A stretch of 64,000 nucleotides of DNA from an uncultured archaeon (GTDB lineage Archaea > Aenigmatarchaeota > Aenigmatarchaeia > CG10238-14 > SCSR01): positions 9,127 to 73,126 of the forward strand of contig CAZYHQ010000002.1 of NCBI GenBank assembly GCA_964646855.1, given 5' to 3'. The notes under the pieces were generated by a model that had not been told where the DNA came from, made no database searches, and was given only the letters and a program-made list of their open reading frames with translations. Made by a program: the position numbers and the translations under genes. Position 1 is the stretch's first letter; every line of letters begins with the position of its first letter. Shown piece by piece: positions 11,039 to 59,420 of this stretch.

Positions 11039-11329
11039 GGCGTGCTGGTCATAGCCTCTCTTCTGTTTTTGCGTTCGCAGCCTTTTACAGCAGAAAACAC
11101 ATAGGTAGCATTTGTCTGAGCGCTCAACGCTTGCATCCAATTCACACTGTACCGTTTCATCCTGCTTTATCCCAACTCGCTTGCGCACATCGTTAACGGA
11201 ACAAAGCGGTGCCGTTTCTGATTACAGTGTAACCCTCTCGGGCTGCCTGTTATTCGGCGAATTAGCGGATGGAGAGAACTTCCTCACCCTGCGTTTGAAG
11301 GCAGAGCGAAGCTACCCAACCAGCTCGCC
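11039..11329 (-). ncRNA. rnpB: RNase P RNA
   Basis: GC-richer segment of about 291 nt.
- P1: 5' GGCGAGCUGGU pairs with 3' ACCAGCACGCC (one mismatch).
- P2: GGUAGC pairs with GCUACC.
- P3: hairpin CUCUGC..GCAGGG.
- CR-I-like GAGGAAGUUC; CR-II/III-like AGGAUGAAACGGUACAGUG; CR-V-like ACAGAAGAGAGGCUAU. Confidence 0.8.
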
Positions 11330-11364: not shown

Positions 11365-11952
11365 CTACACGTGAATCCCAGTTGCATGTTCCTCTCCACC
11401 ACAGCCGTCAGATAAATTCCAAACATCTGCTATCTGTGCAGAATTAAATCCATAATTTTTGATCAAATATTTAGCAAGACCCTCATACACATACCATCTC
11501 CAGCACATACAGCAGCAAGGCCCACCTTCATCCGACATTTTCATAGCTTCATCGTAAATTTTCTGCTCCTCAGATGTTAAAATTATACTGGTGTCATAAT
11601 TTAGTAATTCTTTTGCAAGACCCACAGTAATGTTGTAGGGATCTGTAGGAATTTTATCTATGTGCGAATATTTTTTCAATCCCTCAATTTGCTCATCGTA
11701 TCTGTGCAAGCTCATTTCGTCGCAACAAGATCCTTTCAAGGTTTCAGAATCAGATTTTCGTAAAACAGCATCCGGTCCGAAACAAAAAACATTTCCATTT
11801 GTGCTCAACTCTTCAAACCTTGCAACTATATTTTTATCTACGCCAGATATGGAAGCACTCTGACTAGTCTTATACGGTGCACCAACGAAAACAGAAATCA
11901 GTACAATTAATGAAACACTTACTGCTAAAATGTAAAAATAACTGTTTTTCAT
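11365..11952 (-). CDS. Membrane-anchored Cys-rich protein (PCC/CxC motif, possibly PCYCGC-family-like), paralog of 13148..13639
   Basis: N-terminal TM anchor, then motifs GSCCDE, GGPCCCMCWRW, YEGLAKYLIKNYG and SDGCGG. ATG 11952 (MKNSYFYIL) was chosen because it avoids overlap with the upstream gene. Confidence 0.65.
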   Translation of the reverse strand: MKNSYFYILAVSVSLIVLISVFVGAPYKTSQSASISGVDKNIVARFEELSTNGNVFCFGPDAVLRKSDSETLKGSCCDEMSLHRYDEQIEGLKKYSHIDKIPTDPYNITVGLAKELLNYDTSIILTSEEQKIYDEAMKMSDEGGPCCCMCWRWYVYEGLAKYLIKNYGFNSAQIADVWNLSDGCGGEEHATGIHV

Positions 11953-11959
11953 TTTTATT

Positions 11960-12715
11960 TCAAATCCCTTTATTTTCGGAATAAAAAATGTCAATTTTTC
12001 TTTTGACCGATTTCAAGTAAAAACTTGTTCCTTGTTCCTTCACGGTAAAACCATCTGCAAATTTTTCTTCTTTACTCGAATCATGATAGAATTTTACAAA
12101 AACTGAAAGCGGCGAGAAAAATCTTAGGATAGAAAAAGACAATTTTAGCAACGAACTTTTTCTTGCAATGTGTGCAATCTCGTGCAGCAAAACAGCTTCG
12201 AGCTCCTTTCTGTCAAGTACATCAAGCAAACCTACCGTGAAAAAGATTGCAGATTTAAAATTTCTGAAAGAGAACGCAGCAGGGATCGCTTTGTTCAGAG
12301 CATAGATTTTTGGGATCGGAAAATTTAATTTACTTGCATAACGCGTTACAATCTTCGTCATCCAGCTTATTTTTATTTCTCTGCTTTTGTTTGAAAAAAT
12401 ATAGTATGAAGGAATTACAATTGCGCCCACCAAAGTGCTCGCCAGAAAAGTAGTTGGCAAGGCCAGCAAAGTTAGACTTGTCAGATTGTTCTGACAAGGT
12501 GCGCACGCCACACTGCAGCCAACATTTGTTGTGAACAAGACAAACGGGAAAAACAGAAATGTAAGATGGCTGTAAATCAAAGCCAATTTGGTTTTCGTTC
12601 CGAAATTAGTACCTTTCAAAAAAATTAAAGTCACTATTGCGAGAAAGAAAGAGAAGACGGATAGCAGAACTTTGTCGTCAACCACTAATGGTATGCCAGC
12701 GAAGCAGCCAATCAT
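11960..12715 (-). CDS. BlaR1/MecR1-like M56 (M48-clan) zinc metallopeptidase without sensor domain
   Basis: 251 aa with N-terminal TM helices and the HExxH motif LLHEIAHIARK. A GCSVACAPC motif sits between TM helices. The ORF ends about 70 aa after HExxH. It overlaps the BlaI-like gene by 4 nt. Confidence 0.75.
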   Translation of the reverse strand: MIGCFAGIPLVVDDKVLLSVFSFFLAIVTLIFLKGTNFGTKTKLALIYSHLTFLFFPFVLFTTNVGCSVACAPCQNNLTSLTLLALPTTFLASTLVGAIVIPSYYIFSNKSREIKISWMTKIVTRYASKLNFPIPKIYALNKAIPAAFSFRNFKSAIFFTVGLLDVLDRKELEAVLLHEIAHIARKSSLLKLSFSILRFFSPLSVFVKFYHDSSKEEKFADGFTVKEQGTSFYLKSVKRKIDIFYSENKGI

Positions 12716-13089
12716 TTTTTCCTCCCTCTAAACCTTTCGTTAAAGTAAGTGACTGCTGCAGACCCGAAATCGTCGATCAACTTGTTTACAGTTTTTTCTA
12801 TTATGGACTGCTCTAAAGTAGCTTTAGAGAATTTTGGAAAATAAATGTAGTGCGCTCCCCCCCTCCCAACTTCTACCTTCCTCTCGACTATGCCTTTTTT
12901 GTGCAGCCTGTCCAAAATTACTGCGACACTCGTGAGCGCAACTTTCCTCCTCCGCTTTAAAATTTTGTGCAATTCCCTCACCCTTGATTGCTCCTTCTTC
13001 CAAAGAATTTCCAGAACATCGCACTCGAGGGGGCTTAGAAGAGACTTCACGCCGCTTTTATCGAAACTCATCTTGTTTACGCCAAGCAT
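12712..13089 (-). CDS. BlaI/MecI/CopY-family winged-helix transcriptional repressor
   Basis: 125 aa. LSPLECDVLEILWKK..RVRELHKIL......TSVAVILDRLHKKGIVERK matches the Penicillinase_R pattern. It is first in an operon with the M56 peptidase. Confidence 0.8.
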   Translation of the reverse strand: MLGVNKMSFDKSGVKSLLSPLECDVLEILWKKEQSRVRELHKILKRRRKVALTSVAVILDRLHKKGIVERKVEVGRGGAHYIYFPKFSKATLEQSIIEKTVNKLIDDFGSAAVTYFNERFRGRKK

Positions 13090-13147
13090 ATTTATTTAAA
13101 TATAGCTACCAGTATTTATAAGTATTACAAAATTTGTAAAGGATAGC

Positions 13148-13639
13148 ATGCAGCCCAAAAATGGAAATTTCATAGCGGCAATTGCAGTCGTTGTAGCAAT
13201 TTTCGTCGGGTTCCAAGTGTGGATTCTTTCCGGGGTTTACAGCGATCCTTATCAAGAGAAATTCGGTGCAGGACTTTTCGGTCTTGTAGATCATTCTGGA
13301 GTTAGCTCAAAATCTGGCATTGGCAAATACAGCAATCTTCCTCTTGGCGAAGATGGTTTCAACACAATGGTCGAATGGGACAAAACAATAACTTTAAGCG
13401 ACGAACAGAAAAAGCAATTTGCCGGGTTTAACACGAGATTGCCTTGCTGCGGTTTCGGTTTAACAACCGAGGACGAATTTAGCGACTGCAGATGCGGACA
13501 CCATCTTGCTTACGCCGGTTTGATTAAGTATGGTTTGACGAATGGTTGGGCGCGAGGGCAAATACAAGAAGAAATTGATCAATGGAAAACGGTATTTTAT
13601 CCAATCTGTTCGCAAAATCCAAAATTGTGTGATTTATGA
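13148..13639 (+). CDS. Membrane-anchored Cys-rich protein (PCC/CxC motif), paralog of 11365..11952
   Basis: 163 aa with an N-terminal TM anchor. Shares with the paralog the block WDKTITLSDEQKK...LPCCGFG...DCRCGHHLAYAGLIKYGLTNGW. Confidence 0.7.
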   Translation: MQPKNGNFIAAIAVVVAIFVGFQVWILSGVYSDPYQEKFGAGLFGLVDHSGVSSKSGIGKYSNLPLGEDGFNTMVEWDKTITLSDEQKKQFAGFNTRLPCCGFGLTTEDEFSDCRCGHHLAYAGLIKYGLTNGWARGQIQEEIDQWKTVFYPICSQNPKLCDL

Positions 13640-14151
13640 TGGGTAAATTAACATTAGGTTTGAAAATGCTGTTTAATGAAATGCGTTATGCCGCACTCAT
13701 TGTAATTTCTTCTGTAACCATTTCAATTTTGTTCATGTATTCGATGGGCGCGTTGTACCTAGATCCTTTATTTTTCAATTACTTTGAATTCTTTGAAGAC
13801 GGGTTGCTGAACATATCGTTGAATTTTGTTTATGTAACAATTGCGCCGATATTTGCGGGCATAACAGTTGCAAGCATTGTGTACAAGTTAGTAAACTTCA
13901 AAAAAAGTGTTTTCAAAGAAGGAAGCGCAGGATCTTTAGGTTTTGCATCTGCAGCTTTTGTAACAACATGCTCGAATTGCGTGCCTGTTGCATTATATTC
14001 TTTGGGGATAACGTATGGTTTATTTCAAGCAGCATTCGCTCCATTTGTTTTGCCGTTCAAACTTCTGACAATTGCAATAATATCTTTATCTTTTTATTTT
14101 GCCACAACTAGTTTAGGACAATTTTGTAAACTGAAAAAAACTCGGAGGTGA
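13636..14151 (+). CDS. Polytopic membrane protein with TM-embedded CSNC motif
   Basis: 171 aa with about 5 hydrophobic helices and GSAGSLGFASAAFVTTCSNCVPVAL. ATGA overlap with the upstream ORF. Confidence 0.6.
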   Translation: MMGKLTLGLKMLFNEMRYAALIVISSVTISILFMYSMGALYLDPLFFNYFEFFEDGLLNISLNFVYVTIAPIFAGITVASIVYKLVNFKKSVFKEGSAGSLGFASAAFVTTCSNCVPVALYSLGITYGLFQAAFAPFVLPFKLLTIAIISLSFYFATTSLGQFCKLKKTRR

Positions 14152-14155
14152 ATGA

Positions 14156-14332
14156 ATGAAATTTGATTTGACAATGGTAATGATAATTGCCGTGTTGGCC
14201 CTAGTTTCTGTCCAGACCATCCAACTTGTCGGGGTTATGTCAACAGTAAGCTCGCTGACTACAGGCAATTTGGCAACAGCAGCTACCGCTGCCAGCAGCT
14301 CACAGGCAATTTCAGGAATTGGTGGGTGCTAA
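14156..14332 (+). CDS. Small membrane peptide ending in Cys
   Basis: Absent from the ORF track (58 aa): MKFDLTMVMIIAVLALVSVQTIQLVGVMSTVSSLTTGNLATAATAASSSQAISGIGGC. A strong SD, GGAGGTGA, ends 5 nt before the ATG. Confidence 0.5.
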   Translation: MKFDLTMVMIIAVLALVSVQTIQLVGVMSTVSSLTTGNLATAATAASSSQAISGIGGC

Positions 14333-14370: not shown

Positions 14371-15504
14371 TTGAAATCTATCAAGAAACACAAAGAGAAA
14401 GTTTTAGCAATAGAATTGAAGGATTTTGATTTGAAGAGAATCATTCTCTTGATACTTACAGTCATATTGATTGTAGAAGTTCTTGTTACGTTCAATATCA
14501 ACACAACAATATTCAACAAACTCCGCCCCTCGAATCTGGAACTCATTCGTGTCGTTGACTCTTCTTGCTCGGATTGTCTTAACATAGACACAATTTCTTC
14601 AAAAATCCAGGACCAAAATGTAAAAATCTTGTCGGACAAGACTTTGGAAAGAAACTCTGCAGAAGCACAACAGATTATAAACAAATACGGATTAAAGAGG
14701 GTTCCAGTACTTTTGGTTTCCGGCGAAATAAGCAGAGACGAAAATCTAAAAAGCTCTTTCATCCAACTCGGCGGCATGATGACTCAGGATGTCATCCTTA
14801 TCGAAACCGAACCACCTTACGTGGACTTGTCTATGGAAGAAGTCAGGGGAAGAATTGCAATTACGAATATTATTGACAGTTCCTGCGACCTTTGCAGCAG
14901 CTTTGACGGCTTTGTCAGTACACTCGAAAATAATGGAGTTAGGATAACAGAAAGGAAGACACTCGAATATACTGCCACCGAAGCCAAAGATTTGATAAGC
15001 AAATTTTCAGTCCAAAAAATTCCAGCGATTGTCCTGTCGGCGGACATAGTCGAATACAAATTTGTCCAGAGTTTCTGGTCTCAGCTGAACGCCACAGAAA
15101 AATCTGGATTTTTCGCGCTGCACACAACCACACCACCTTACAGGAACACTTCAACAAACAAAATAGACGGGTTGGTTACCCTGTATACAATTACTGATGA
15201 CAGCTGCGCAAATTGTTACAACGCTTCCGTCCACAAACAAATTTTGCTCAGCTTCGGCATCAAACCGCAAAAGGAGTCAGTGATAGATATTTCTTCGCCG
15301 AGCGGCAAGGAAATCACAATCAAGTACAACATAACAAAAGTGCCTACGATTATGCTTTCGCCTGATGCGTCTCTGTATTCGTCTCTTGTGCAAATATGGC
15401 CTACAGTCGGTACAGTGGACAAGGACGGCTGGTTCGTTTTCAGAAATGTAGAAATAATGGGAACATACAAAGATTTGTCTAGTGGTAAAATTGTTGCCGG
15501 CTAA
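14371..15504 (+). CDS. Membrane-anchored protein with three tandem thioredoxin-fold CxxC modules
   Basis: 377 aa with a TM anchor. Three repeats of about 95 aa each carry D-S-C-x-x-C (SSCSDC, SSCDLC, DSCANC), a cis-Pro-like (V/I)P (KRVPVLLVS, QKIPAIVLS, TKVPTIMLS), and the first two end in PPY. TTG start is preceded by AAGGAG. Confidence 0.75.
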   Translation: MKSIKKHKEKVLAIELKDFDLKRIILLILTVILIVEVLVTFNINTTIFNKLRPSNLELIRVVDSSCSDCLNIDTISSKIQDQNVKILSDKTLERNSAEAQQIINKYGLKRVPVLLVSGEISRDENLKSSFIQLGGMMTQDVILIETEPPYVDLSMEEVRGRIAITNIIDSSCDLCSSFDGFVSTLENNGVRITERKTLEYTATEAKDLISKFSVQKIPAIVLSADIVEYKFVQSFWSQLNATEKSGFFALHTTTPPYRNTSTNKIDGLVTLYTITDDSCANCYNASVHKQILLSFGIKPQKESVIDISSPSGKEITIKYNITKVPTIMLSPDASLYSSLVQIWPTVGTVDKDGWFVFRNVEIMGTYKDLSSGKIVAG

Positions 15505-16099
15505 ATACAGGATTATTGCTCTGCTTGCAGCAGTAATCATAATCTCTGGTGCAGTTTATTCAAACATGTCGGCGAAAGACGCAACTCAAAAAACAAAGCA
15601 AAGTACTTTATCCACGATTACAGCCCTTGTGAGTATAAGCCAGCACAGGATACTCACACCTTCAGACTTTTCTGAACTTTCAAAAATGGTTGAAGGAGAC
15701 GCCATTGCTTCCAAGCAAGTGAAATATGCAATATGGTTTTCAGAGAACGGTATAGCAGAACACATGTCCCACAAGCTAGGAGACTTGTACAATTATATCG
15801 ATAAGGGCCAATACGAAGTTTGCATACCGCACGAAGTAGAACATATTCTGGATTACATAACGCTTGGGGATTCAGAAAAGCTAAAGGAAACTTTAGATGT
15901 TATCGATGACAATTACCAAGGGTGGTTCTCGAAATCATATTCTTTGAAACAGCAATATCCAAATACGTATGCCGCCTTGGACCAAGTCGTACTTGCAATA
16001 AATTCTGCCCTGACAAAACTAAAAAATGAAAATTACCAGATAGCTGCAGAAGTCGGTTTTATCAAAGGCTACAGCGAGCTTGGCTGTTCAGGTTTGTAA
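15482..16099 (+). CDS. Membrane-anchored hypothetical protein (His-containing helical ectodomain)
   Basis: 205 aa with an N-terminal TM anchor and motifs EHMSH and IPHEVEH. No family recognised. GTG start overlaps the upstream gene by 23 nt. Confidence 0.5.
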   Translation: MVKLLPAKYRIIALLAAVIIISGAVYSNMSAKDATQKTKQSTLSTITALVSISQHRILTPSDFSELSKMVEGDAIASKQVKYAIWFSENGIAEHMSHKLGDLYNYIDKGQYEVCIPHEVEHILDYITLGDSEKLKETLDVIDDNYQGWFSKSYSLKQQYPNTYAALDQVVLAINSALTKLKNENYQIAAEVGFIKGYSELGCSGL

Positions 16100-16144
16100 T
16101 CACAAAGAATAAATACTAACTTTTACAAATCTTGTAAAGGTAAA

Positions 16145-16744
16145 ATGCAAACTAAAATAAAAAAGACGCATTTTGCAATAATTGTTGTCGCTTTAGTCGT
16201 CTTGGTTGCAGCATCGGGATACTTTTTGTTAAATCCGTTTGGGACTTCTGGCGACGTGTTTTCTGCGAAAAGTTCACCTGCTTCTACTGGCGTAAGTCAG
16301 TCCTCATCCAAGGGCTTGTCGCCAGGCAACAAGGCACCAGATTTTGAGGTTACTACTGTTGACGGCAAAAAAATAAGTTTGGCTTCCCTAATCCAACAGA
16401 AGAAACCTTTTGTTTTATATTTTTTTGCAAGCTGGTGCCCATTTTGTACTGATGAGCTGACTAGACTGAAAGGCATCTACCCGGATTATCAGGATAAAGT
16501 AGGATTCGTTGCGGTGGATTTAGATTTGCAGGAAACTGAAGAAACAGTGACCAAATACAAGCTTTCGCACCAGTTTTTGGGCGACTTCGCTGCTGGCAAC
16601 AGGGACATATTGATAAATTACATGGTCATTGCAACCACAACAAAATATTTCATTGACAGCGACGGAGTTATTCTTACAAAGGGTTCGGGGGAAATTTCAG
16701 ATGCCCAGTGGAAGGCGCTGTTCCAAGATTTGGTAAACTTGTGA
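16145..16744 (+). CDS. TlpA/ResA-like membrane-anchored thiol-disulfide oxidoreductase
   Basis: 199 aa with a TM anchor and the redoxin-fold motif FVLYFFASWCPFCTDE. Confidence 0.85.
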   Translation: MQTKIKKTHFAIIVVALVVLVAASGYFLLNPFGTSGDVFSAKSSPASTGVSQSSSKGLSPGNKAPDFEVTTVDGKKISLASLIQQKKPFVLYFFASWCPFCTDELTRLKGIYPDYQDKVGFVAVDLDLQETEETVTKYKLSHQFLGDFAAGNRDILINYMVIATTTKYFIDSDGVILTKGSGEISDAQWKALFQDLVNL

Positions 16745-16748
16745 TTGT

Positions 16749-17432
16749 ATGGTAGATTTTGTACTGCTGTCATTAGCTCTAGCAGCCGGGGCTGCAGCCT
16801 TTTTTAATCCGTGCGGATTTGCAGTTCTGCCTGCTTACATTTCAAATTATTTTTCAAAATCTCAAAAGAAAAGTTCTCCAGCGAAAAGTCTTTTCAGTGG
16901 TGTTTCAGTCGGTGTCATAGCAACTTTAGGTTTTATTTTTCTTTTTGTAATCCTTGGAATGCTGCTGAAATTTGTAAGTCGGGATATCGGAAATTATATC
17001 CCGTGGATTGATTTTGTTCTAGGGCTGGTTTTAATTGGATTTGGATTACTGTTGATAGTCGGTAGGGGTTTTGGTTTTACAGTTCCAGTAAGATCCTTGC
17101 CTTTAGAAAACAATTTCTCCTTTTTCCAATACGGAATTGTTTATGGTCTAGCATCTTTAGGATGCACTCTGCCGATCTTCTTGTCTGTCGCATTCGGCTC
17201 GCTGGCCGCAACTTTTGTTGAAGGAATTTTCATGTTTTTTGCCTATGCTATAGGAATGAGTCTACCGTTTATTGCAGTCACGATCGCTACAGTTCTGTCT
17301 AAAGATATTTTCGTCAGCAAACTGCAGTCTTATCTTAAGTATATGAAAACAATCAATGCAATCATACTGATTTTCGTCGGTCTTTATTTGATTTACTTCC
17401 AACTAAATGCTGGTTTGTTGGTTAGAGTATGA
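16749..17432 (+). CDS. ccdA: CcdA/DsbD-family transmembrane thiol-disulfide electron transporter
   Basis: 227 aa, polytopic. The two conserved TM cysteines lie in FFNPCGFAVLPAYI and LASLGCTLPIFL. Confidence 0.85.
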   Translation: MVDFVLLSLALAAGAAAFFNPCGFAVLPAYISNYFSKSQKKSSPAKSLFSGVSVGVIATLGFIFLFVILGMLLKFVSRDIGNYIPWIDFVLGLVLIGFGLLLIVGRGFGFTVPVRSLPLENNFSFFQYGIVYGLASLGCTLPIFLSVAFGSLAATFVEGIFMFFAYAIGMSLPFIAVTIATVLSKDIFVSKLQSYLKYMKTINAIILIFVGLYLIYFQLNAGLLVRV

Positions 17433-17481: not shown

Positions 17482-18150
17482 ATGGAAAAAGCTGAATGCA
17501 AACATTGCGGAAAAAAGTTCGACTCATCAAGATCTTTAGAGCAGCATATAGCAGCTAAACATTCTGGCACCTACCAGTCAGCGAAAGTTGTCAAGAAAAA
17601 ATTTACATACAAGAGTTTGATTTTGTATGCAATAATTTCTTCGATAGCTGGCATTGGAATTTACGGCATTATCTGGGCTGTAACTTCGCCAAGTCAGATT
17701 GGTCCCATAGGATCCACACACATACATGCAGACATAGCAGTTTTTCTTGACGGAAGGCAGATAACTCCGTTTGGTCCGCAATACTACGTGCGAGCCAGCC
17801 ATGTTCATGTCGAATCTGGCCCTGGGGAAGGTACTGTGATCCACATACATGCAACTGGTGTGCCATTGGGAAACTTCTTCAGCACTTTGGGAATGAAGTT
17901 TAACAAAGACTGCTTTGTTAGTGACAACAAAGTTAATTACTGCAATTCTGATAGCAAAACTTTGAAAATGTTTGTAAAGCATGAAGGCGGCAATTGGACA
18001 CAAAACTTTGATTATGATAAATATGTGTTTACCGATTTGGACAAAATTTTAGTAACATACGGAGGCGAAACTCCAGACCAATTAGAATTGCATATGAACG
18101 CAGTTACGGATTTCTCGAAGGACAATTCAGGTAGAAAAATGCCCGTGTGA
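17482..18150 (+). CDS. C2H2 zinc finger - TM helix - His-rich ectodomain protein
   Basis: 222 aa. N-terminal CKHCGKKFDSSRSLEQHIAAKH (Cx2Cx12Hx4H), one TM helix, then an ectodomain with THIHADIAVF and HVHVESG..GTVIHIHATG. Confidence 0.6.
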   Translation: MEKAECKHCGKKFDSSRSLEQHIAAKHSGTYQSAKVVKKKFTYKSLILYAIISSIAGIGIYGIIWAVTSPSQIGPIGSTHIHADIAVFLDGRQITPFGPQYYVRASHVHVESGPGEGTVIHIHATGVPLGNFFSTLGMKFNKDCFVSDNKVNYCNSDSKTLKMFVKHEGGNWTQNFDYDKYVFTDLDKILVTYGGETPDQLELHMNAVTDFSKDNSGRKMPV

Positions 18151-18292: not shown

Positions 18293-18835
18293 ATGAAAAA
18301 TAAAATTTTCGTACTTGTCCTTGTGGCAGTTGTATTAGCTTCGAGTAGCGTGTTAGCCCACCAAGTCGAAAAAACAAAGACAGTCGAAGAAATTCTCGCA
18401 GAAATTACGAGAGAACAAAATGTTGTTGCTGTGAGTCAGATCGACTGCAATAAAGTTTCTAATTTGCAATTTGAAGACCTTGGGGATGCTGTAATGGAAA
18501 GAATGGTTGGTAGCCACGAGCAGCATGAACAAATGGATGCAATGATGGGCGGAGAAGGCTCAGCTAGTCTTGTGCAAATGCACACGATTATGGGAAAAAA
18601 TTGGTTGAGTTGCAACAATTTGCAGGGAATGATGGTTGTAGGAATGACAGGAACTAACATGATGCCAATGATGATGAGAATGATGGGGAATTACTATCCA
18701 GCGTACTACAGCAGATACGATTCCTTGTTGGTTTTTACTTTAATCGGATGGGCACTCGCAATAATTCTGCTTGTGGTGTTATTAATTTTTTCAACAACTG
18801 GAAAATTAAAATTCCGAAAGAGAAGAATTGAATAA
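18293..18835 (+). CDS. Exported Met/His-rich protein with C-terminal TM anchor (putative Cu(I) binding)
   Basis: 180 aa with a signal peptide, then HEQHEQMDAMMGGEG and GMMVVGMTGTNMMPMMMRMMG, and a C-terminal TM helix. Confidence 0.6.
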   Translation: MKNKIFVLVLVAVVLASSSVLAHQVEKTKTVEEILAEITREQNVVAVSQIDCNKVSNLQFEDLGDAVMERMVGSHEQHEQMDAMMGGEGSASLVQMHTIMGKNWLSCNNLQGMMVVGMTGTNMMPMMMRMMGNYYPAYYSRYDSLLVFTLIGWALAIILLVVLLIFSTTGKLKFRKRRIE

Positions 18836-19431: not shown

Positions 19432-19884
19432 ATGGAAGTAAAAATAAAAAACAGTACAGCAGTGGCAATAAGCTTGGTGATAATCGCTGCTCTGATAGGT
19501 GCTACAGGTTTTTTGTTGGCGCAGATGTACCTGCCTAAAACCGGATACGTTGTTTCAGCCGGACAAGTTGCGGTACCCACTGGCGTTGACCAGTCAAACA
19601 TCTTTGAAGGTAAGATAACCAGTCCAAAAGTCAGCCCTGGAAAATTGGAAGGGGTCACGACGTACGATGCAAACTGTGTTGGTAACGAAATTACTCAGTG
19701 TGATTCTGGCATAATGACCGTGGAATATGGCGTGCTCAATTTCCATTACTCGCACAAGATGGAAATCCAACCTTGCTTGCACATGTTCGGACCTGAGAAA
19801 GTTATTGTAGACATCCTAGATTCAGATGGGAATGCAAAAATTACAAGGACCATCGACGTCAGCATGATGGGTCATCACGAGTGA
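19432..19884 (+). CDS. Membrane-anchored hypothetical protein (Cys/His ectodomain)
   Basis: 150 aa with a TM anchor. The ectodomain has 3 Cys, HYSHKME, and a C-terminal MMGHHE. Confidence 0.5.
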   Translation: MEVKIKNSTAVAISLVIIAALIGATGFLLAQMYLPKTGYVVSAGQVAVPTGVDQSNIFEGKITSPKVSPGKLEGVTTYDANCVGNEITQCDSGIMTVEYGVLNFHYSHKMEIQPCLHMFGPEKVIVDILDSDGNAKITRTIDVSMMGHHE

Positions 19885-20042
19885 ATTGCGTGGTAGGATT
19901 ATTCGGATTTGGCAAACCAAAATGTGCACAATGCGGAATGGCGTTGGGAGAACAGACATACGAATGGGAAAACAGAAAATTCTGTTGCCATGACTGCAAA
20001 ACAGCTTTCAGAAAGGGCAAGTCAAAAGCAAGCTGTCATTAA
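19881..20042 (+). CDS. TRASH-like zinc-ribbon mini-protein
   Basis: Absent from the ORF track (about 53 aa): ...KCAQCGMALGEQTYEWENRKFCCHDCKTAFRKGKSKASCH. GTG start overlaps the upstream stop (GTGA); the exact start is uncertain. Confidence 0.5.
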   Translation: MNCVVGLFGFGKPKCAQCGMALGEQTYEWENRKFCCHDCKTAFRKGKSKASCH

Positions 20043-21016: not shown

Positions 21017-21439
21017 ATGTTGTTTGGAAAAATAAACAGGTTAAAAGGGAAATTGTCAGCTGTATTTGGAAATGCCGCTGGTGTCGGCAGCATCATCTCC
21101 GCGCACAACGTTTGTCATTGGCTGTGCCTTGCTGCGGTAGCCGCACTTTCTGTTTTTGGTATTGCAGTCTCGAGTACGGCTTTGATGTTTCTAGAAGATT
21201 ACAATTTACTTTTTTGGGGTATGGGTTTGGCCTTTCTTGCCGTTAGTTTGTTTCTTTACTCAAAAAATCCAAAATGCATTTCAAAAAAACTTATTTTGTT
21301 TAACGTTGGTTTGCTTGTTATCGGCACGCCCTTCGTTGCACAGTTCAGTTCATTTTTTTGGCTTACCGGAGGTTTAATTGTCGCCATGACTTCTGGATTT
21401 TATTTCAAAGAAAAATTTTTTGCTGGTGAAAAAGAATGA
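21017..21439 (+). CDS. Polytopic membrane protein with TM-embedded CHWLC motif
   Basis: 140 aa with GNAAGVGSIISAHNVCHWLCLAAVAAL. This resembles GSAGSLGFASAAFVTTCSNCVPVAL in ORF 13636..14151. Confidence 0.55.
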   Translation: MLFGKINRLKGKLSAVFGNAAGVGSIISAHNVCHWLCLAAVAALSVFGIAVSSTALMFLEDYNLLFWGMGLAFLAVSLFLYSKNPKCISKKLILFNVGLLVIGTPFVAQFSSFFWLTGGLIVAMTSGFYFKEKFFAGEKE

Positions 21440-21666
21440 AAAACCGAAATGCGAAACTGATCTACATTGCATTAGTCGCAATCGCTGCAATTTTTATTTT
21501 TACTGTTTACGTATACTACCAGACTTATTTCGGTACAGAATATACGCGGGCTGTTTCAAGTCAGAACACAAACAACATTTGTCAAGTCCCTCTGGGCTAC
21601 ACAGAGGAAGCGTGGAAAGAACACATGAGCCATCATCCAGATCAGTATAGAGAGTGTCTCAGATGA
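21436..21666 (+). CDS. Small single-TM protein with Cys/His tail
   Basis: 76 aa with a TM anchor, then NNICQVP...EEAWKEHMSHHPDQYRECLR. ATGA overlap with the upstream ORF. Confidence 0.45.
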   Translation: MKNRNAKLIYIALVAIAAIFIFTVYVYYQTYFGTEYTRAVSSQNTNNICQVPLGYTEEAWKEHMSHHPDQYRECLR

Positions 21667-22037
21667 AGAAAGTAACATACGCAATAACTATTTTAGTTAT
21701 TGCGGTAGTAACGATTGCATATTACTTATTTTCACAATCTGCAAGCGGGCTAGGGAAGTACGATGATTTTGCAAAATGTATCACTGAAAAAGGGATAGTT
21801 GTTTACGGCGCATACTGGTGCCCGCACTGTTTGAATCAAAAAAACATATTTGGTAGCAGTTGGAAATACGTTGACTACGTTGAGTGCGACCCGAAGGGTA
21901 TAAATGCAAACCTGCAACTCTGCCAAGAAAAGGGAATCAGCGGATACCCAACCTGGGATATCGGCGGTAGACAATACGCAGGTGAACTAACTTTGTCTAG
22001 TTTGGCGAAACTTTCCGGCTGCAGCCTGCCAAAATAA
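21654..22037 (+). CDS. Membrane-anchored thioredoxin-like protein of the type fused to bacterial VKOR
   Basis: 127 aa with a TM anchor. YGAYWCPHCLNQKNIFG...YVECDPKG...LCQEKGISGYPTW.IGG matches the Trx-like domain appended to cyanobacterial VKOR homologs. Confidence 0.75.
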   Translation: MSQMKKVTYAITILVIAVVTIAYYLFSQSASGLGKYDDFAKCITEKGIVVYGAYWCPHCLNQKNIFGSSWKYVDYVECDPKGINANLQLCQEKGISGYPTWDIGGRQYAGELTLSSLAKLSGCSLPK

Positions 22038-22487: not shown

Positions 22488-24554
22488 ATGGCAACCGATC
22501 CTGTTTGTGGAATGCACGTTGATGAAAAGAAAGCAGTGTTCAAAAAAGAAGTTGATGGTAAGACAGTATATTTCTGCAGCGAGGTTTGCTTGAGGACTTT
22601 TGAAAAACCTGAAGCTGAGTTGAAAAGATTAAAACTTTTAGTAATTTTGGGTGCAATAATTTCTATTCCGACTATTGCGCTCTCCTTTTTTATAAAAATC
22701 CCTTACAACAATTTTGTTTTGTTAATTTTGTCGGCTCCTGTCCAATTCTATGCAGGCTGGAGATTTTACAAAGGTACGTTTGATGCGCTGAAAGCAAAAT
22801 ACGCGAATATGGATACACTAATTGCAACAGGCACAACAGCAGCCTGGCTTTATAGTACAGCAGTGACTTTCTTTCCAACAATAATTCAAGGCGAAACTTA
22901 CTTTGACGTTTCTGTAATAATTGTGACTTTGATTTTGTTCGGCCGTTATCTCGAAGACATCGCAAAGGGCAAAGCATCTTCTGCAATCAAACGACTGATG
23001 GGTCTACAACCAAAAACAGCAACAGTCATTCGCGCAGGAAAAGAAATCGAAGTCCAGATAGAGGATTTAAAAGTTGGGGATATCGTAGTTGTCAAACCTG
23101 GTGAAAGAATTCCGGTTGATGGTATTGTTGTTGAAGGGCATTCCTCGGTTGACGAATCAGCAATTACTGGAGAGAGCATGCCTGTTGGCAAAAAAATCGG
23201 TGACGAAGTTATCGGAGCTACTATCAATAAATCTGGTTTGCTAAAATTCAAAACGACAAAAGTTGGTAAGGATACAGTTCTGTCGCAAATAATACAAATA
23301 GTCCAGCAAGCATTGACAACCAAAGCACCAATTCAGCGTCTGGCAGACAAAGTGTCATCCTATTTTGTACCAGCTGTAATTTTAGTTGCACTAGCTTCTT
23401 TCTTCTTATGGTTCTATTTGACTGGTTTCAACTTTTTGTTCGCTCTAACAATTACGATTGCAATCTTGATCATTGCCTGCCCGTGTGCTTTAGGAATAGC
23501 AACACCAACTGCGATTCTTATTGGAACAGGACTGGGAGCAGAAAGCGGGATTCTAATCAAAGGTGGAGAGGCTTTGGAAACCACGCACAAACTTACAACT
23601 GTTGTTTTTGACAAGACTGGCACTCTAACAAAAGGTCAACCATCAGTCACAGATGTGATACCTGTTGGAGTCGAACAGAAGGAAGCTCTGATGCTTGCAG
23701 CTGTAGCTGAAAAAGGATCTGAACACCCGATTGGTGAAGCAATAGTAAAACGTGCAGAAGAACTGAAAATAAAATTAGCAAATGTAAAGAACTACGAAAC
23801 AATTGCAGGCAAAGGGATAAAAACAAAATATCTGAACAAAATAATTTTGGTAGGAAATAGGGAATTCATAAAGGAAAACAAAATCGATGCAGAAAAAATT
23901 GAGAGCACGCTGCAAAAATTAGAAGGGGAAGGAAAAACTGCAGTTATCGTTTCGTTCGGAGGCGTAGTCAAAGGTGTCATTGCAGTTGCGGATACGCTGA
24001 AGAAGTTTTCAAAGGAAGCAGTAGAGGAGCTGCACAAAATGGGTAAAGAGGTTATTATGATTACTGGTGACAACGAAAGAACTGCCGACGCGATCGCAAA
24101 GCAAGTTGGTATCGATAGAGTTTTTGCACGAGTTCTGCCCGGTGAGAAAGCGAGCATTGTCAAGAAATTGCAGGAAGAGAAAAAAATTGTTGCAACTGTC
24201 GGCGACGGCATTAACGATGCACCAATGCTTGCTCAAGCCGATGTCGGGATTGCCATAGGCAGCGGTACGGATGTAGCATTGGAAACTGGGAAAATAGTTT
24301 TGATAAAAAATGATTTGCGGGATGTGGTTACTGCAATAGATTTGAGCAAATTCACAATAAACAAAATAAAACAGAATTTATTTTTGGCTTTTGTTTACAA
24401 TGTTGCAGGCATACCGATTGCTGCTGGTCTGCTTTATCCTTTCTTCGGATTCCTGTTGAGTCCGATAATTGCCGGAGCGGCCATGGCTTTCAGCTCTGTT
24501 TCTGTTGTAGGCAACTCACTGCTGATGAAAAGATATAAACCCAAATTGCGTTAG
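22488..24554 (+). CDS. copA: Copper-translocating P1B-type ATPase with N-terminal YHS/TRASH domain
   Basis: 688 aa. N-terminus [12 protein letters not shown]...YFCSEVC, TM CPC motif ([13 protein letters not shown]), [18 protein letters not shown]. Confidence 0.95.
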
Positions 24555-25153: not shown

Positions 25154-25189
25154 ATATGAATTTAATTTCATATGAAATTAAATTCATAT
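25154..25189. promoter_or_regulatory. 36-bp perfect palindrome (putative ArsR-family operator)
   Basis: ATATGAATTTAATTTCAT|ATGAAATTAAATTCATAT was verified base by base. Its symmetry centre (25171/25172) coincides with the annotated ATG of the ArsR-family gene, in the divergent intergenic region shared with acyP. Confidence 0.6.
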
Positions 25190-25489
25190 GTTTTGTTTGT
25201 TAGGGCATTCGGGAGTCCCTTAAGATTGCAAATTCTTGAAGTGTTAAAGAAATCGCCTAAATCTGTAACGCAAATTTGTGATGAACTGGGAGTCGAACAA
25301 AGCAAGATTTCTCATAACTTAAGATGTCTTGTAGATTGCGGTTTTGTGAAAAACAAGAAGGAAGGTAGGAAGCGAGTTTATTCTTTAAATAAAGAAACGG
25401 TTTTCCCGTTGATGAAAATCATAGATAGACACATCGACAAATACAAAGACCATTTAGTTGCTTGTGGTGTGATAAAGGAGGTTGTATAA
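25172..25489 (+). CDS. ArsR/SmtB-family metalloregulator
   Basis: 105 aa: FGSPLRLQILEVLKKSPKSVTQICDELGVEQSKISHNLRCLVDCGFV (wHTH) with C-terminal Cys residues. It lies immediately upstream of merA. Confidence 0.85.
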   Translation: MKLNSYVLFVRAFGSPLRLQILEVLKKSPKSVTQICDELGVEQSKISHNLRCLVDCGFVKNKKEGRKRVYSLNKETVFPLMKIIDRHIDKYKDHLVACGVIKEVV

Positions 25490-25570
25490 ATGAAAACGAA
25501 AACATTGTGTGGCAATGAGGGAGAAGGCGGTTGTTCTCCATTCGTTCCAGATAATTTTAAAAAAATGTGA
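25490..25570 (+). CDS. Mini-ORF with Cys pair, in frame with merA across a TGA
   Basis: Absent from the ORF track (26 aa): MKTKTLCGNEGEGGCSPFVPDNFKKM. The strong SD AAGGAGGT ends 7 nt before the ATG. Its TGA stop (25568-70) is in the same frame as the merA ORF. Confidence 0.4.
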   Translation: MKTKTLCGNEGEGGCSPFVPDNFKKM

Positions 25571-25600
25571 GGTGAAAAAATTATACAAGAAAAATTTGAC

Positions 25601-55905: not shown

Positions 55906-56004
55906 TGCAGGAGGCCGGATTTGAACCAGCGAAGGGACTAACCCACGAGGTTTCTTCCTGATGACCTAAGCCTCGCGCCATTGACCAGACTAGGCGACTC
56001 CTGC
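55906..56004 (-). tRNA. tRNA-Leu (anticodon UAG) with a canonical-position intron of about 13 nt
   Basis: GCAGGAG/CTCCTGC acceptor, D arm GCC..GGC, anticodon stem CGAGG/CCTCG. The loop CUUAGG is interrupted after position 37 by TCATCAGGAAGAA. Long variable arm, T arm GCTGG-TTCAAAT-CCGGC. 99 nt total. Confidence 0.85.
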
Positions 56005-59289: not shown

Positions 59290-59334
59290 AAGCAAGAAAA
59301 TATATTTTATGACAAATATATTAAATTATCTTTG

Positions 59335-59420
59335 TGGCCCCGACGGGACTCGAACCCGCAACCGGAGGTTGCCTCCCGCAGTCCGAAGCCTCCTCGGTTA
59401 TCCAATTACCACACGGGGCC
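59335..59420 (-). tRNA. tRNA-Arg (anticodon UCG) with a canonical-position intron of about 13 nt
   Basis: GGCCCCG/CGGGGCC acceptor, anticodon stem GGAGG/CCTCC. The loop CUUCGG is interrupted by ACTGCGGGAGGCA. T arm GCGGG-TTCGAGT-CCCGT. 86 nt. Confidence 0.85.

What the first reader, a model, noticed from the sequence alone, without database searches (positions are those of the whole stretch)
14371..15504. One polypeptide with three tandem thioredoxin-fold CxxC modules on a membrane anchor
After an N-terminal TM helix the protein consists of three repeats of about 95 aa, at approximately nt 14533-14820, 14848-15141 and 15169-15468.

Each repeat has a D-S-C-x-x-C active site (SSCSDC, SSCDLC, DSCANC). 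Each has a cis-Pro-type (V/I)P strand about 45 aa later (KRVPVLLVS, QKIPAIVLS, TKVPTIMLS). The first two end in a PPY motif.

This is a PDI-like multi-domain architecture. Its position in the same run as CcdA and TlpA suggests an extracytoplasmic disulfide isomerase or reductase relay. Eukaryotic PDI-style tandem Trx proteins are not a described feature of DPANN-type archaea.
Basis: seen in the sequence. Interest (0 to 1): 0.65.

Follow-up and report, generated by a model that had tools for sequence, protein, structure and literature searches.

The report
Membrane-anchored triple thioredoxin-fold CxxC protein
A DPANN archaeon encodes a surface-exposed protein of three fused thioredoxin-like modules, each with an intact Cys-x-x-Cys site; it is the signature gene of a widespread, uncharacterised, repressor-controlled gene cassette that probably protects or handles cysteine thiols outside the cell under metal or oxidative stress.

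Summary
ORF 14371-15504 (+) encodes 377 aa: a Lys-rich N-tail, one TM helix, then three homologous ~106-aa thioredoxin-fold modules. Its only six Cys form three CxxC motifs. All six Cys and the three putative cis-Pro are invariant in 39 aligned homologues.

AlphaFold gives pLDDT 90.5. Foldseek's best matches are multi-Trx proteins: PDI, calsequestrin, archaeal PDO.

The modules are closest to the N-terminal unit of archaeal protein disulfide oxidoreductase (PDO), not to PDI. The family is large (796 50%-identity clusters at E<=1e-30), occurs in DPANN archaea and Patescibacteria, and has 2, 3 (usual) or 4 modules.

CcdA-like genes are nearby in 10/29 loci and TlpA-like genes in 3/29; both are absent from the closest relative.

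The conserved partners have no Pfam or PDB match:
- a Cys-rich membrane protein, split here into two ORFs;
- a small TM peptide ending in -GGC;
- a His-rich zinc-finger/TM protein;
- a BlaI/BlaR1-like pair with a TTACA-N5-TGTAA operator.

Cupredoxin fusions, P1B ATPases and MerA point to thiophilic-metal stress.

Best reading: an inducible extracytoplasmic thiol-disulfide reductase/isomerase analogous to ScsC/DsbC. A metal relay and a DsbA-like oxidase are not excluded.

The parts
14371..15504 (+). ORF of the triple thioredoxin-fold protein (377 aa plus stop, TTG start)
   Evidence: 100% identical cluster P0001 and 49 homologues. 1392 representative clusters at E<=1e-3.
14440..14493 (+). Single TM helix (aa 24-41, IILLILTVILIVEVLVTF) after a Lys-rich N-tail (aa 1-23): a type-II signal anchor with the ectodomain outside
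   Evidence: Sequence. AF2 helix at aa 21-51. Topology is inferred from the positive-inside rule.
14527..14844 (+). Trx module 1 (aa 53-158). CxxC = CSDC at nt 14566-14577; putative cis-Pro P112 at nt 14704-14706; PPY at aa 148-150.
   Evidence: Pfam Thioredoxin_3 1.4e-8 over aa 59-120. Invariant C66, C69 and P112. AF2 secondary structure.
14845..15165 (+). Trx module 2 (aa 159-265). CxxC = CDLC at nt 14884-14895; P218 at nt 15022-15024; PPY at aa 255-257. This middle module is the one absent from 2-module relatives and doubled in 4-module relatives.
   Evidence: NCBIfam PDO model TIGR02187 matches aa 155-224.
15166..15501 (+). Trx module 3 (aa 266-377). CxxC = CANC followed by invariant Tyr, at nt 15205-15216; P325 at nt 15343-15345; conserved C-terminal G-x-YKDL motif.
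13125..13139 (.). Putative BlaI-type operator TTACAAA-A-TTTGTAA, 9 nt before the ATG of the first cassette gene, in the divergent BlaI / cassette intergenic region
   Evidence: Two matches in 64 kb against 0.08 expected; no shuffle reached 2. The same motif lies 23-32 nt upstream of the A/B gene in L001, L003, L012, L014, L017, L025, L026 and L034.
12712..13089 (-). BlaI/CopY-family (Penicillinase_R) repressor, divergent from the cassette
   Evidence: NCBIfam CopY_TcrY 1.3e-9 and BlaI 4.7e-7, both below cut-off. The 89%-identical L001 homologue carries PF03965. Found within 8 kb in 15/29 loci.
11960..12715 (-). BlaR1-like membrane M48/M56 zinc protease (HEIAH) without a penicillin-binding domain; two conserved Cys in a loop
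   Evidence: Pfam Peptidase_M48 3.2e-13. Cys conservation at >=80%.
13148..13639 (+). 'A' protein: TM anchor plus an extracytoplasmic Cys-rich domain. Family motif C-[DE]-[YF]-C-C-G-x8-11-C-G-C-x-H; the window copy reads PCCG...CRCGHH. No Pfam family.
   Evidence: A or B lies within 3 kb of the multi-Trx gene in 33/40 loci.
13636..14151 (+). 'B' protein: 4-TM protein with an intramembrane CxxC (family CPxCQG; CSNC here) and a cytoplasmic-side Cys. In most relatives it is fused with A into one 400-500 aa protein.
   Evidence: AF2 of the fused form gives pLDDT 76. No PDB fold match below E = 2. Weak MerTP hit, E = 0.02.
14156..14332 (+). 58-aa peptide: TM helix, Ser/Thr/Ala linker, strictly C-terminal ...GIGGC (family consensus LPxMVGGC-stop)
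   Evidence: Alignment of 36 homologues. An ORF ending in -GGC lies within 4 kb in 31/40 loci. The tail is fused to the A domain in L038, L044, L050, L059 and L062.
15482..16099 (+). 205-aa membrane-anchored protein overlapping the 3' end of the Trx gene by 23 nt; lineage-specific
   Evidence: Homologues only in L001, L002 and L036.
16123..16137 (.). Second copy of the operator motif (TTACAAATCTTGTAA), directly upstream of the TlpA-like gene
   Evidence: The same arrangement occurs upstream of TlpA and H222 in L034.
16145..16744 (+). TlpA/ResA-like membrane-anchored thiol-disulfide oxidoreductase (WCPFC). Accessory, not core.
   Evidence: Pfam AhpC-TSA 3.8e-18; NCBIfam ResA 9e-19. Present in 3/29 loci. 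Absent from L001.
16749..17432 (+). Divergent CcdA/DsbD_TM-like membrane protein (NPCGF...LGCTLP). Accessory.
   Evidence: The window copy itself gets only a weak SfLAP hit. Its homologues from related loci pass Pfam DsbD_TM at 28-68 bits. Present in 10/29 loci.
17482..18150 (+). 'H222': N-terminal C2H2 zinc finger, TM helix, extracytoplasmic His-rich domain (HxH...HxHxE...HxH, two Cys)
   Evidence: Weak Pfam zf-C2H2 hit. Alignment of 30 homologues. Found within 8 kb in 19/29 loci.
18293..18835 (+). Met-rich secreted/anchored protein (MMPMMMRMM)
   Evidence: Sequence. Recurs in 9 related loci, sometimes between A/B and the Trx gene. The Cu(I)-type reading of the Met motif is inference.

Best explanation
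The gene encodes a type-II membrane-anchored, outward-facing protein built from three fused thioredoxin-fold modules. The modules derive from the N-terminal unit of archaeal protein disulfide oxidoreductase, and each keeps a CxxC and the facing Pro.

It is the signature gene of an inducible envelope cassette. A BlaI-like repressor binding TTACA-N5-TGTAA, paired with a BlaR1-like Cys-bearing membrane protease, controls an operon that encodes:
- a Cys-rich membrane protein (B plus A);
- a membrane-tethered peptide ending in -GGC;
- the triple-Trx protein;
- a His-rich zinc-finger/TM protein;
- in this genome, also TlpA-like and CcdA-like genes.

I propose that the three CxxC sites perform thiol-disulfide exchange on exported cysteine-containing proteins. 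That would be a reductase/isomerase activity like ScsC, DsbC or PDI. It would keep those proteins reduced or correctly paired when thiol-reactive agents (Cu, Hg, oxidants) hit the envelope.

Reducing power would come through the membrane from the CcdA-like protein, where one is present, and/or from the B-A protein with its intramembrane CxxC.

Shown: architecture, fold, conservation, synteny, operator motif. Inferred: topology, direction of electron flow, substrates, inducing signal.
For: Fold and active sites.

Every module keeps the CxxC and the Pro 44-49 aa downstream in 171 three-module relatives. This geometry is typical of catalytic Trx-fold oxidoreductases.

CcdA-like genes (Pfam DsbD_TM) are recurrent neighbours, within 8 kb in 10/29 loci and directly downstream in L035, L038, L045, L046, L066 and L069.

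In the window the same operator motif precedes both the cassette and the TlpA-CcdA pair: 2 hits against 0.08 expected.

The operator lies between BlaI and the cassette in related loci, at 0.064 per kb in BlaI-containing loci against 0.011 per kb in the others.

The sensor protease carries a conserved Cys pair.

Eight of 193 relatives carry a C-terminal cupredoxin. Six of these have the full His-Cys-His-Met type-1 copper ligand set, which is an electron-transfer site.

The surrounding region is a metal island: a P1B ATPase, ArsR-MerA, a Met-rich protein and a TRASH-like peptide.

Precedent: copper-induced Scs systems use a DsbD-like ScsB to drive ScsC. ScsC is a trimer, so three Trx catalytic domains act per unit in Proteus and Caulobacter, and it also binds Cu(I) (PMC5524982, PMC8900818, PMC10907172).
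Against: The XX dipeptide of the CxxC is hypervariable. It is mostly S/T/K/A/E/D followed by D/E/K/N, never His, and rarely Pro or Gly. Characterised oxidoreductase families conserve this dipeptide because it sets the redox potential. Such variability is more typical of metal-binding CxxC sites.

CcdA-like genes are missing from about two thirds of the loci, and from the closest relative.

The best-conserved partners (A, B, the -GGC peptide, H222) have no known function or fold. The electron path is therefore conjecture.

There are no biochemical data and no cultured host.
Confidence: 0.45

Rival explanations
1. Thiophilic-metal handling. The three CxxC sites bind Cu(I) or Hg(II) in two-Cys coordination. 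They pass the metal, or buffer it, between the outside, the -GGC swinging-arm peptide, the Cys/His cluster of the A domain and the intramembrane CPxC of B. This would be a MerP/MerT-like or metallochaperone-like relay built on a Trx scaffold.
For: - The CxxC dipeptide is hypervariable and sits in an acidic context, D-S-S-C-x-[DE]-C-[FY]-[DN].
- Cupredoxin fusions occur in relatives.
- The best family hit of the repressor is CopY/TcrY.
- Met-rich and His-rich cassette proteins are present.
- P1B ATPases lie in 8 of 63 related loci, and the window has a YHS-ATPase plus ArsR-MerA (548 bits against a cut-off of 454, with a C-terminal CC).
- L038 has a MerT/HMA-like neighbour.
- The B region gives a weak MerTP hit, E = 0.02.
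- ScsC and ScsB themselves bind Cu(I) tightly (PMC8900818).
Against: - No known metal-trafficking family uses this PDO-like module.
- The conserved Pro facing each CxxC, and the association with CcdA-like genes, are redox hallmarks.
- ATPase and MerA neighbours occur in a minority of loci (3/29 with full flanks) and are not syntenic in the closest relative.
- The MerTP hit is at noise level.
Confidence: 0.3
2. An oxidative folding catalyst. The modules act like DsbA and introduce disulfides into secreted proteins. They are re-oxidised by the B-A membrane protein (a DsbB/VKOR analogue with an intramembrane CxxC) or, in fused forms, by the type-1 copper domain.
For: - The residue before the putative cis-Pro is V, I or L, as in DsbA, PDO and Grx, rather than the Thr of Trx. 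This comparison rests on my own knowledge of those families.
- B has a CxxC inside a TM helix plus a further Cys, and is the most tightly linked partner (33/40 loci).
- Cupredoxin fusions supply a high-potential electron acceptor.
- A membrane-anchored Trx with the DsbA-type CPHC motif lies in the window (21654-22037). Its homologues sit between the -GGC peptide gene and the multi-Trx gene in L036, L041, L042, L047 and L063.
Against: - There is no DsbA helical insertion and no CPHC in the modules themselves.
- Acidic residues flank the Cys, which would be expected to stabilise the disulfide rather than make it oxidising (inference).
- The B-A model matches neither DsbB nor VKOR.
- A housekeeping oxidase would not be expected behind a repressor/protease stress switch.
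Confidence: 0.15
3. A non-catalytic role. The CxxC pairs are structural disulfides, or the protein is a holdase or scaffold on the cell surface, comparable to the three Trx-fold domains of calsequestrin or the b domains of PDI.
For: Calsequestrin, which has exactly three Trx-fold domains, is among the top Foldseek matches (E about 3e-6). The XX dipeptide is not conserved.
Against: - All six Cys and the three Pro are invariant over sequences down to 30% identity. That is unexpected for mere structural disulfides in a fold that does not need them.
- Ectodomain pI is about 5.0, and acidic residues make up 12% of it (39 of 327), so it is not calsequestrin-like.
- The partners are Cys-rich, and the cassette is regulated with redox and metal genes.
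Confidence: 0.07

Closest known systems
Archaeal/Aquificae protein disulfide oxidoreductase (PDO; PfPDO 1A8L, P. horikoshii 1J08, Aquifex 2AYT/2YWM; NCBIfam TIGR02187)
   Same: Tandem Trx-fold units in one chain, each with a CxxC. The module profile finds the N-terminal PDO unit as the best solved relative (3e-9 to 2e-6). Foldseek probability is 1.00. The whole protein hits TIGR02187 at 8e-8.
   Different: - Three (or 2 or 4) units instead of two.
- N-terminal membrane anchor with a predicted outside location, whereas PDO is cytoplasmic.
- No conserved CPYC C-unit.
- Scores 31.8 bits against the family cut-off of 185.
- Different partners: PDO works with thioredoxin reductase (own knowledge).
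Eukaryotic protein disulfide isomerase family (PDI, ERp57, ERdj5, ERp44)
   Same: A multi-Trx-domain exported or luminal protein. PDI is the top Foldseek match (8pko_B, E 6e-8).
   Different: - All modules are catalytic.
- No CGHC sites.
- No non-catalytic b/b' substrate-binding domains.
- TM-scores are low (0.12-0.17), so the domain arrangement differs.
- No sequence-level family match.
Suppressor-of-copper-sensitivity system (ScsB/ScsC/ScsD/ScsA) and DsbD-DsbC
   Same: The working analogy. Scs is a stress-induced envelope thiol-oxidoreductase set with:
- a DsbD-family membrane electron conduit (compare the CcdA-like gene);
- a membrane-tethered TlpA-like protein (compare the TlpA-like gene);
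- a small CxxC membrane protein of unknown role;
- a catalyst that presents three Trx domains per functional unit (trimeric ScsC) and also binds Cu(I).
Sources: PMC5524982, PMC8900818, PMC10907172.
   Different: - No homology beyond the Trx fold.
- ScsC has a DsbA-type domain with a helical insertion and trimerises through a stalk; here three minimal modules are fused in one chain.
- The regulator is BlaI/BlaR1-like or MarR, not CpxRA.
- The most conserved partners (A, B, the -GGC peptide, H222) have no Scs counterpart.
CcdA-ResA/TlpA/CcmG reducing pathways
   Same: The window encodes both a CcdA-like and a TlpA/ResA-like protein behind the same operator motif.
   Different: The triple-Trx modules do not match the Redoxin/AhpC-TSA families. 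The CcdA and TlpA genes are accessory (10/29 and 3/29 loci).
MerP/MerT mercury relay and HMA metallochaperones
   Same: Exposed CxxC pairs with a variable XX dipeptide. A membrane partner with an intramembrane Cys pair and a cytoplasmic-side Cys. MerA, ArsR and a P1B ATPase lie in the same 16-kb region.
   Different: A thioredoxin fold, not the ferredoxin-like HMA fold. There is no significant sequence match. The association with mer genes is not conserved.

Membership tests
Thioredoxin-fold superfamily | beta-alpha-beta-alpha-beta-beta core fold | tested here: met
   AF2 pLDDT 90.5, with three repeated beta-alpha-beta-alpha-beta units. Foldseek matches PDI, PDO, calsequestrin, ERp44 and the AhpF N-terminal domain. 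Pfam Thioredoxin_3 scores 35.1 bits against a cut-off of 24.8.
Thioredoxin-fold superfamily | CxxC at the start of helix 1, with a Pro-containing loop before strand 3 facing it | tested here: met
   The CxxC follows strand 1 in each module. The Pro lies 46 aa downstream, directly before strand 3. Both are invariant in homologues. The cis conformation itself cannot be read from the tool output.
PDO (TIGR02187 equivalog) | Score above the curated family cut-off | tested here: not met
   31.8 bits against a cut-off of 185.
PDO (TIGR02187 equivalog) | Two Trx units, soluble cytoplasmic protein of about 226 aa, conserved CPYC in the C-terminal unit | tested here: not met
   Three units, an N-terminal TM helix and 377 aa. 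The dipeptides are SD, DL and AN, and are variable across the family.
PDO (TIGR02187 equivalog) | Homology of the individual unit | tested here: met
   The module profile A5 hits the N-unit of 1j08 and 1a8l at 3e-9 and 9e-9.
Eukaryotic PDI | a-b-b'-a' architecture with CGHC catalytic sites and non-catalytic b domains | tested here: not met
   All three modules carry a CxxC. No His occurs in any XX dipeptide among 513 sites. NCBIfam pdi_dom does not hit this protein.
DsbA / ScsC | Trx fold with an inserted helical domain; CPHC or CPYC motif | tested here: not met
   Each module is about 106 aa, with no inserted helical domain. Pfam DSBA and Thioredoxin_4 do not hit the window protein.
TlpA/ResA/CcmG (Redoxin, AhpC-TSA) | Pfam Redoxin/AhpC-TSA match, WCxxC motif | tested here: not met
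   No Redoxin or AhpC-TSA hit; Thioredoxin_8 only at E = 0.013, below cut-off. The neighbouring gene at 16145-16744 does meet this feature.
Glutaredoxin | Pfam Glutaredoxin above cut-off; CPYC and glutathione-binding motifs | tested here: not met
   16.8 bits against a cut-off of 22.9, for module 3 only. There is no CPYC.
Thiol-disulfide oxidoreductase (functional class) | Redox-active dithiol/disulfide with measurable exchange activity | not testable with these tools
   Needs biochemistry.
BlaI/BlaR1-type regulon (context) | Penicillinase_R repressor next to an M56/M48 membrane protease, with a TACA/TGTA-type dyad operator at the target promoters | tested here: met
   The penicillin-binding sensor domain of true BlaR1 is absent (251 aa), so this is BlaR1-like only.

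The most novel reading that the evidence does not exclude
The triple-Trx protein, the B-A membrane protein and the membrane-tethered -MVGGC peptide together form a previously undescribed transmembrane thiol relay shared by DPANN archaea and Patescibacteria.

The B-A protein carries a cytoplasmic Cys, an intramembrane CPxC, and an external C-x2-CC...CGCxH cluster.

This would be a DsbD/VKOR-independent way to move reducing equivalents, or thiophilic metals, across the membrane. The C-terminal Cys on a flexible arm would act as a tethered substitute for a low-molecular-weight thiol, in organisms that may lack soluble thiol buffers (my assumption, not checked here).
Probability: 0.3. Interest if true: 0.8.

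Novelty: new variant of a known kind. Interest (0 to 1): 0.58.

Why it matters
DPANN archaea and Patescibacteria are ultrasmall, mostly episymbiotic organisms whose biology happens at the cell surface. How they manage cysteine chemistry outside the cell is essentially unknown.

This family is large (about 800 clusters at 50% identity) and conserved. It comes with three to four partner families that have no Pfam model and no structural relative, all under a recognisable repressor/protease switch.

If the cassette is an envelope thiol-repair or metal-relay system, it would be a new solution to a problem handled by Dsb/Scs/Ccd systems in model bacteria. It would also assign a function to several abundant 'hypothetical' families at once.

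The fused three-site design offers a natural single-chain comparison with trimeric ScsC and dimeric DsbC, useful for asking why isomerases are multivalent.

Tried and rejected
1. The search for related loci with the 39-sequence alignment failed because no stretch was conserved enough. It was repeated with 12 closer sequences.

2. A single-sequence homologue search with the window's B protein gave only 4 hits. A profile of B, A and fused forms then gave 261.

3. Pfam and NCBIfam found nothing significant for A, B, the -GGC peptide, the extracytoplasmic part of H222, or ORFs 11365-11994 and 15482-16099. PDB sequence search found nothing for a fused B-A protein. Foldseek with the B-A model gave no match below E = 2.

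4. A calsequestrin-like Ca-binding role was rejected. Ectodomain pI is 5.2, the family median is 5.0, and only 39 of 327 ectodomain residues are acidic.

5. A second 376-aa ORF in the window (44704-45834) is not a paralogue. No other window ORF matches any cassette protein, and none ends in -GGC.

6. CcdA/TlpA as the core partner was rejected on synteny counts.

7. PDI, DsbA, TlpA and glutaredoxin membership were rejected (see the membership table).

8. Six literature searches found no description of this family or cassette.

9. Some TPA MAG records carry the labels 'Gammaproteobacteria' and 'Methanosarcinales'. I did not take these at face value and did not check them.
Full report
**1. The observation**

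The ORF at 14371-15504 (+) is real: 377 aa with a TTG start. AGGAG lies about 10 nt upstream. A 77%-identical homologue starts with the same MKS(I/V)KKHKEK, so the start is well placed.

The protein has a Lys-rich N-tail (aa 1-23), one hydrophobic helix (aa 24-41), and then three segments of about 106 aa. It contains exactly six Cys, all in CxxC motifs:
- aa 66-69, SSCSDC
- aa 172-175, SSCDLC
- aa 279-282, DSCANC

A V/I-Pro lies 46 aa after each first Cys. PPY closes modules 1 and 2.

The three segments are clearly homologous. Local alignment scores are 141, 89 and 119, against shuffle means of about 26, giving z = 14-26.

**2. Fold**

Pfam places module 1 in Thioredoxin_3 above threshold. Modules 2 and 3 get weak Thioredoxin and Glutaredoxin hits. 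NCBIfam's best hit is the PDO model, far below its cut-off.

AlphaFold2 was run with a 39-sequence alignment. It gives mean pLDDT 90.5 and pTM 0.76, an N-terminal helix at aa 21-51, and three repeated beta-alpha-beta-alpha-beta units.

Foldseek against the PDB returns only multi-thioredoxin-fold proteins at the top:
- PDI, E 6e-8
- calsequestrin
- Pyrococcus and Aquifex PDO
- ERdj5 and ERp44
- the AhpF N-terminal domain

Global TM-scores are low (0.12-0.17 normalised to the query), so the domain arrangement is its own.

I built a profile from 45 individual modules. Its best solved relative is the N-terminal unit of Pyrococcus PDO (1j08 3e-9, 1a8l 9e-9), followed by Aquifex PDO (2e-6). The modules are therefore PDO-N-unit-like, not PDI-like.

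**3. The family**

A word-indexed search found 50 relatives. Those that carry a name are called 'hypothetical', 'cupredoxin domain-containing', 'thiol-disulfide isomerase/thioredoxin' or, in one case, 'serine kinase of HPr protein'.

An exhaustive profile search found 1392 representative clusters at E<=1e-3 and 796 at E<=1e-30. Most are 360-410 aa and match the whole profile.

All six Cys and the three Pro are invariant in 39 aligned sequences. Of the 193 sequences in hand, 171 have three CxxC, four have four (about 483 aa), and 17 have two.

Two-module forms keep a module-1-like and a module-3-like unit. Four-module forms have two middle units. All forms keep the N-terminal anchor.

Loci come from Aenigmatarchaeota, Woesearchaeota, Pacearchaeota, Nanoarchaeota and Micrarchaeota. 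The two-module forms come from Patescibacteria. The window itself is archaeal: it holds an archaeal RNase P RNA at 11040-11328 and a Sec61-beta gene.

The active-site context is D-S-S-C-x-[DE]-C-[FY]-[DN]-[ILV]. The XX dipeptide is hypervariable. Among 513 sites His never occurs, and Pro and Gly are rare. This is unlike any characterised oxidoreductase class, and I count it as evidence against a finely tuned redox catalyst.

**4. Genomic context**

I fetched 69 loci, of which 63 are non-redundant. I searched their ORFs with iterated profiles of the window's neighbouring genes.

The conserved core is not CcdA/TlpA. It has four parts.

(i) A Cys-rich membrane protein, split in the window into 'A' (13148-13639) and 'B' (13636-14151). 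In most relatives the two are fused into a protein of 400-500 aa.
- B has four TM helices, an invariant CPxCQ in TM3 (CSNC in the window copy), and an invariant Cys after TM4.
- A is an external domain with the nearly invariant motif C-D-Y-C-C-G-S-P-x-P-T-x-I-T-x-C-G-C-A-H.
- A or B lies within 3 kb of the multi-Trx gene in 33/40 loci.

(ii) A peptide of 55-90 aa (14156-14332) with a TM helix, a Ser/Thr/Ala-rich linker, and a strictly C-terminal LPxMVGGC.
- An ORF ending in -GGC lies within 4 kb in 31/40 loci.
- In five loci the same tail is fused to the C-terminus of the A domain.

(iii) 'H222' (17482-18150): a C2H2 zinc finger, a TM helix and an external His-rich domain. It is found in 19/29 loci.

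(iv) A divergent BlaI-family repressor plus a BlaR1-like M48/M56 protease (15/29 loci), or a MarR-type regulator. BlaI or MarR is present in 18/29 loci.

CcdA-like genes are present in 10/29 loci, and their relatives pass Pfam DsbD_TM. TlpA-like genes are present in 3/29. P1B ATPases are present in 3/29 loci with full flanks, and in 8 of 63 overall. The 77%-identical relative (L001) has the same gene order but lacks TlpA and CcdA.

None of A, B, the peptide, or the extracytoplasmic part of H222 matches Pfam or NCBIfam. The AF2 model of a fused B-A protein has pLDDT 76 and no PDB neighbour below E = 2.

**5. Regulation**

A perfect dyad, TTACAAA-A-TTTGTAA (13125-13139), ends 9 nt before the ATG of the first cassette gene. 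It lies in the intergenic region shared with the divergent BlaI gene.

The pattern TTACA-N5-TGTAA occurs only twice in the 64-kb window, against 0.08 expected. The second copy (16123-16137) lies directly upstream of the TlpA-CcdA pair.

In related loci the motif sits 23-32 nt upstream of the A/B gene, often with a second copy near BlaI. In L034 it also precedes H222 and TlpA. Its density is 0.064 per kb in BlaI-containing loci and 0.011 per kb elsewhere.

The half-sites are those of BlaI, MecI and CopY operators (own knowledge); the spacing differs.

The protease lacks a penicillin-binding domain. It carries two Cys that are conserved at >=80% from archaea to Patescibacteria. A thiol-reactive signal is a reasonable guess.

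**6. Metal links**

- Eight of 193 relatives carry a C-terminal cupredoxin. Six of these have the full His-Cys-His-Met type-1 copper ligand set.
- The repressor's best family hit is CopY/TcrY.
- A Met-rich protein (18293-18835, MMPMMMRMM) recurs in the cassette.
- Downstream in the window lie several related genes:
  - a TRASH-like 53-aa peptide;
  - a 4-TM protein with CHWLC, which recurs in 14 loci;
  - a membrane-anchored CPHC thioredoxin;
  - a YHS-domain P1B ATPase (TIGR01525, 655 bits);
  - an ArsR regulator;
  - a bona fide MerA (TIGR02053, 548 bits against a cut-off of 454, with CVNVGC and a C-terminal CC).

These distal genes are not syntenic in the closest relative, so they give colour rather than proof.

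**7. Mechanism**

What is shown:
- a surface-anchored protein with three intact CxxC/Pro Trx sites;
- tight coupling to Cys-rich membrane partners;
- a repressor/protease switch;
- a recurrent but not universal association with a DsbD-family conduit and with copper or mercury genes.

My preferred reading (0.45) is an inducible extracytoplasmic thiol-disulfide reductase/isomerase. It would repair or protect exported cysteines under thiol-reactive stress, and would be fed by CcdA and/or the B-A protein.

The best functional analogue is the copper-induced Scs system. There a DsbD-like ScsB drives ScsC. In Proteus and Caulobacter ScsC is a trimer, so three Trx catalytic domains act per unit, and it also binds Cu(I) (PMC5524982, PMC8900818, PMC10907172).

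The rivals are:
- a metal relay or buffer (0.30), favoured by the variable XX dipeptide and the metal context;
- a DsbA-like oxidase re-oxidised by B-A or by cupredoxin (0.15);
- a non-catalytic role (0.07).

The first three are not mutually exclusive. The Scs proteins show both redox and Cu-binding activities.

**8. Novelty and verdict**

The fold and chemistry are of a known kind. A tandem-Trx protein (PDO) is already known in archaea, so the 'PDI in DPANN' framing overstates the case.

What is new:
- the membrane-anchored, all-catalytic, three-module architecture as a large unannotated family;
- above all, its conserved cassette of unknown partners, including a strictly C-terminal -GGC peptide, shared between DPANN and CPR.

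I file it as a new variant of a known kind, with interest 0.58. The cassette as a whole could turn out to be a new envelope thiol or metal relay (probability about 0.3).

Noticed in passing
window 13125-13139 and 16123-16137: The dyad TTACA-N5-TGTAA occurs only twice in 64 kb (0.08 expected). One copy precedes the cassette and the other precedes the TlpA-CcdA pair. It sits at the same position in many related loci. This is a candidate operator of the BlaI-like repressor.
   Followed up: yes
window 14156-14332 (+): A 58-aa ORF with a TM helix, a low-complexity linker and a C-terminal ...GIGGC. Relatives all end in LPxMVGGC-stop, and the tail is sometimes fused to the Cys-rich A domain. The role of a strictly C-terminal Cys is unexplained.
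   Followed up: partly
window 13148-14151 (+); relatives P0198-P0317: The Cys-rich A and B proteins are fused in most relatives (400-500 aa, about 53% mean column identity). They carry an intramembrane CPxCQ and an external CDYCCG...CGCAH cluster. They have no Pfam or NCBIfam family and no PDB fold match.
   Followed up: partly
window 25172-27001 (+): An ArsR-family regulator is followed by a mercuric reductase. MerA scores 548 bits on TIGR02053 (cut-off 454). It has the CVNVGC active site and a C-terminal CC, and lacks an NmerA domain. This is a mer module in a DPANN-type genome.
   Followed up: partly
window 22488-24554 (+): A heavy-metal/copper P1B-type ATPase with an N-terminal YHS domain (TIGR01525, 655 bits). 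P1B ATPases also lie near the multi-Trx gene in 8 related loci.
   Followed up: partly
window 21654-22037 (+): A membrane-anchored thioredoxin with YGAYWCPHC, which resembles the Trx domain attached to bacterial VKOR (own recollection). Homologues sit between the -GGC peptide gene and the multi-Trx gene in L036, L041, L042, L047 and L063.
   Followed up: partly
window 21017-21439 (+): A 140-aa 4-TM protein with C-x3-C (CHWLC) in the first helix. Homologues are found in 14 related loci. It has no family assignment.
   Followed up: no
window 19881-20042 (+): A 53-aa ORF with CxxC...CCxxC spacing reminiscent of TRASH/YHS metal-binding domains. It is conserved in L001. Pfam gives only a weak zinc-finger hit.
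   Followed up: no
window 11365-11994 (-) and 19432-19884 (+): Further membrane-anchored Cys-rich ORFs flanking the cassette. The first reads GSCC...GGPCCCMCW, and the A-domain profile also matched its L001 homologue. The second is 50% identical over 40 aa to an A-like ORF of L001.
   Followed up: partly
window 17482-18150 (+): A protein with a cytoplasmic C2H2 zinc finger, one TM helix and an external His-rich domain (HxH...HxHxE...HxH). It could be a membrane-tethered sensor or regulator, or a metal-binding protein. It is conserved next to the multi-Trx gene.
   Followed up: partly
window 18293-18835 (+): A Met-rich protein (MMGGEG..., MMPMMMRMMGNYYP) with a signal peptide and a C-terminal TM helix. 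The Met motifs resemble Cu(I)-binding Met motifs.
   Followed up: no
window 11040-11328 (-): Archaeal RNase P RNA (Rfam RF00373, 101 bits). It confirms an archaeal origin for the window.
   Followed up: yes
window 55906-56004, 59334-59420, 61888-61977 (-): The tRNA calls disagree between tools. Rfam finds tRNAs at 55906-56004 and 61889-61977. ARAGORN calls the latter tRNA-Pyl(cta) and finds a tRNA-Arg at 59334-59420 that Rfam misses. These long genes (87-99 nt) may carry introns.
   Followed up: no
relatives P0013, P0052, P0053, P0098, P0135, P0179: These family members have a C-terminal cupredoxin domain with the full type-1 copper ligand set (His, Cys, His, Met). P0017 and P0021 have lost the Cys.
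   Followed up: yes
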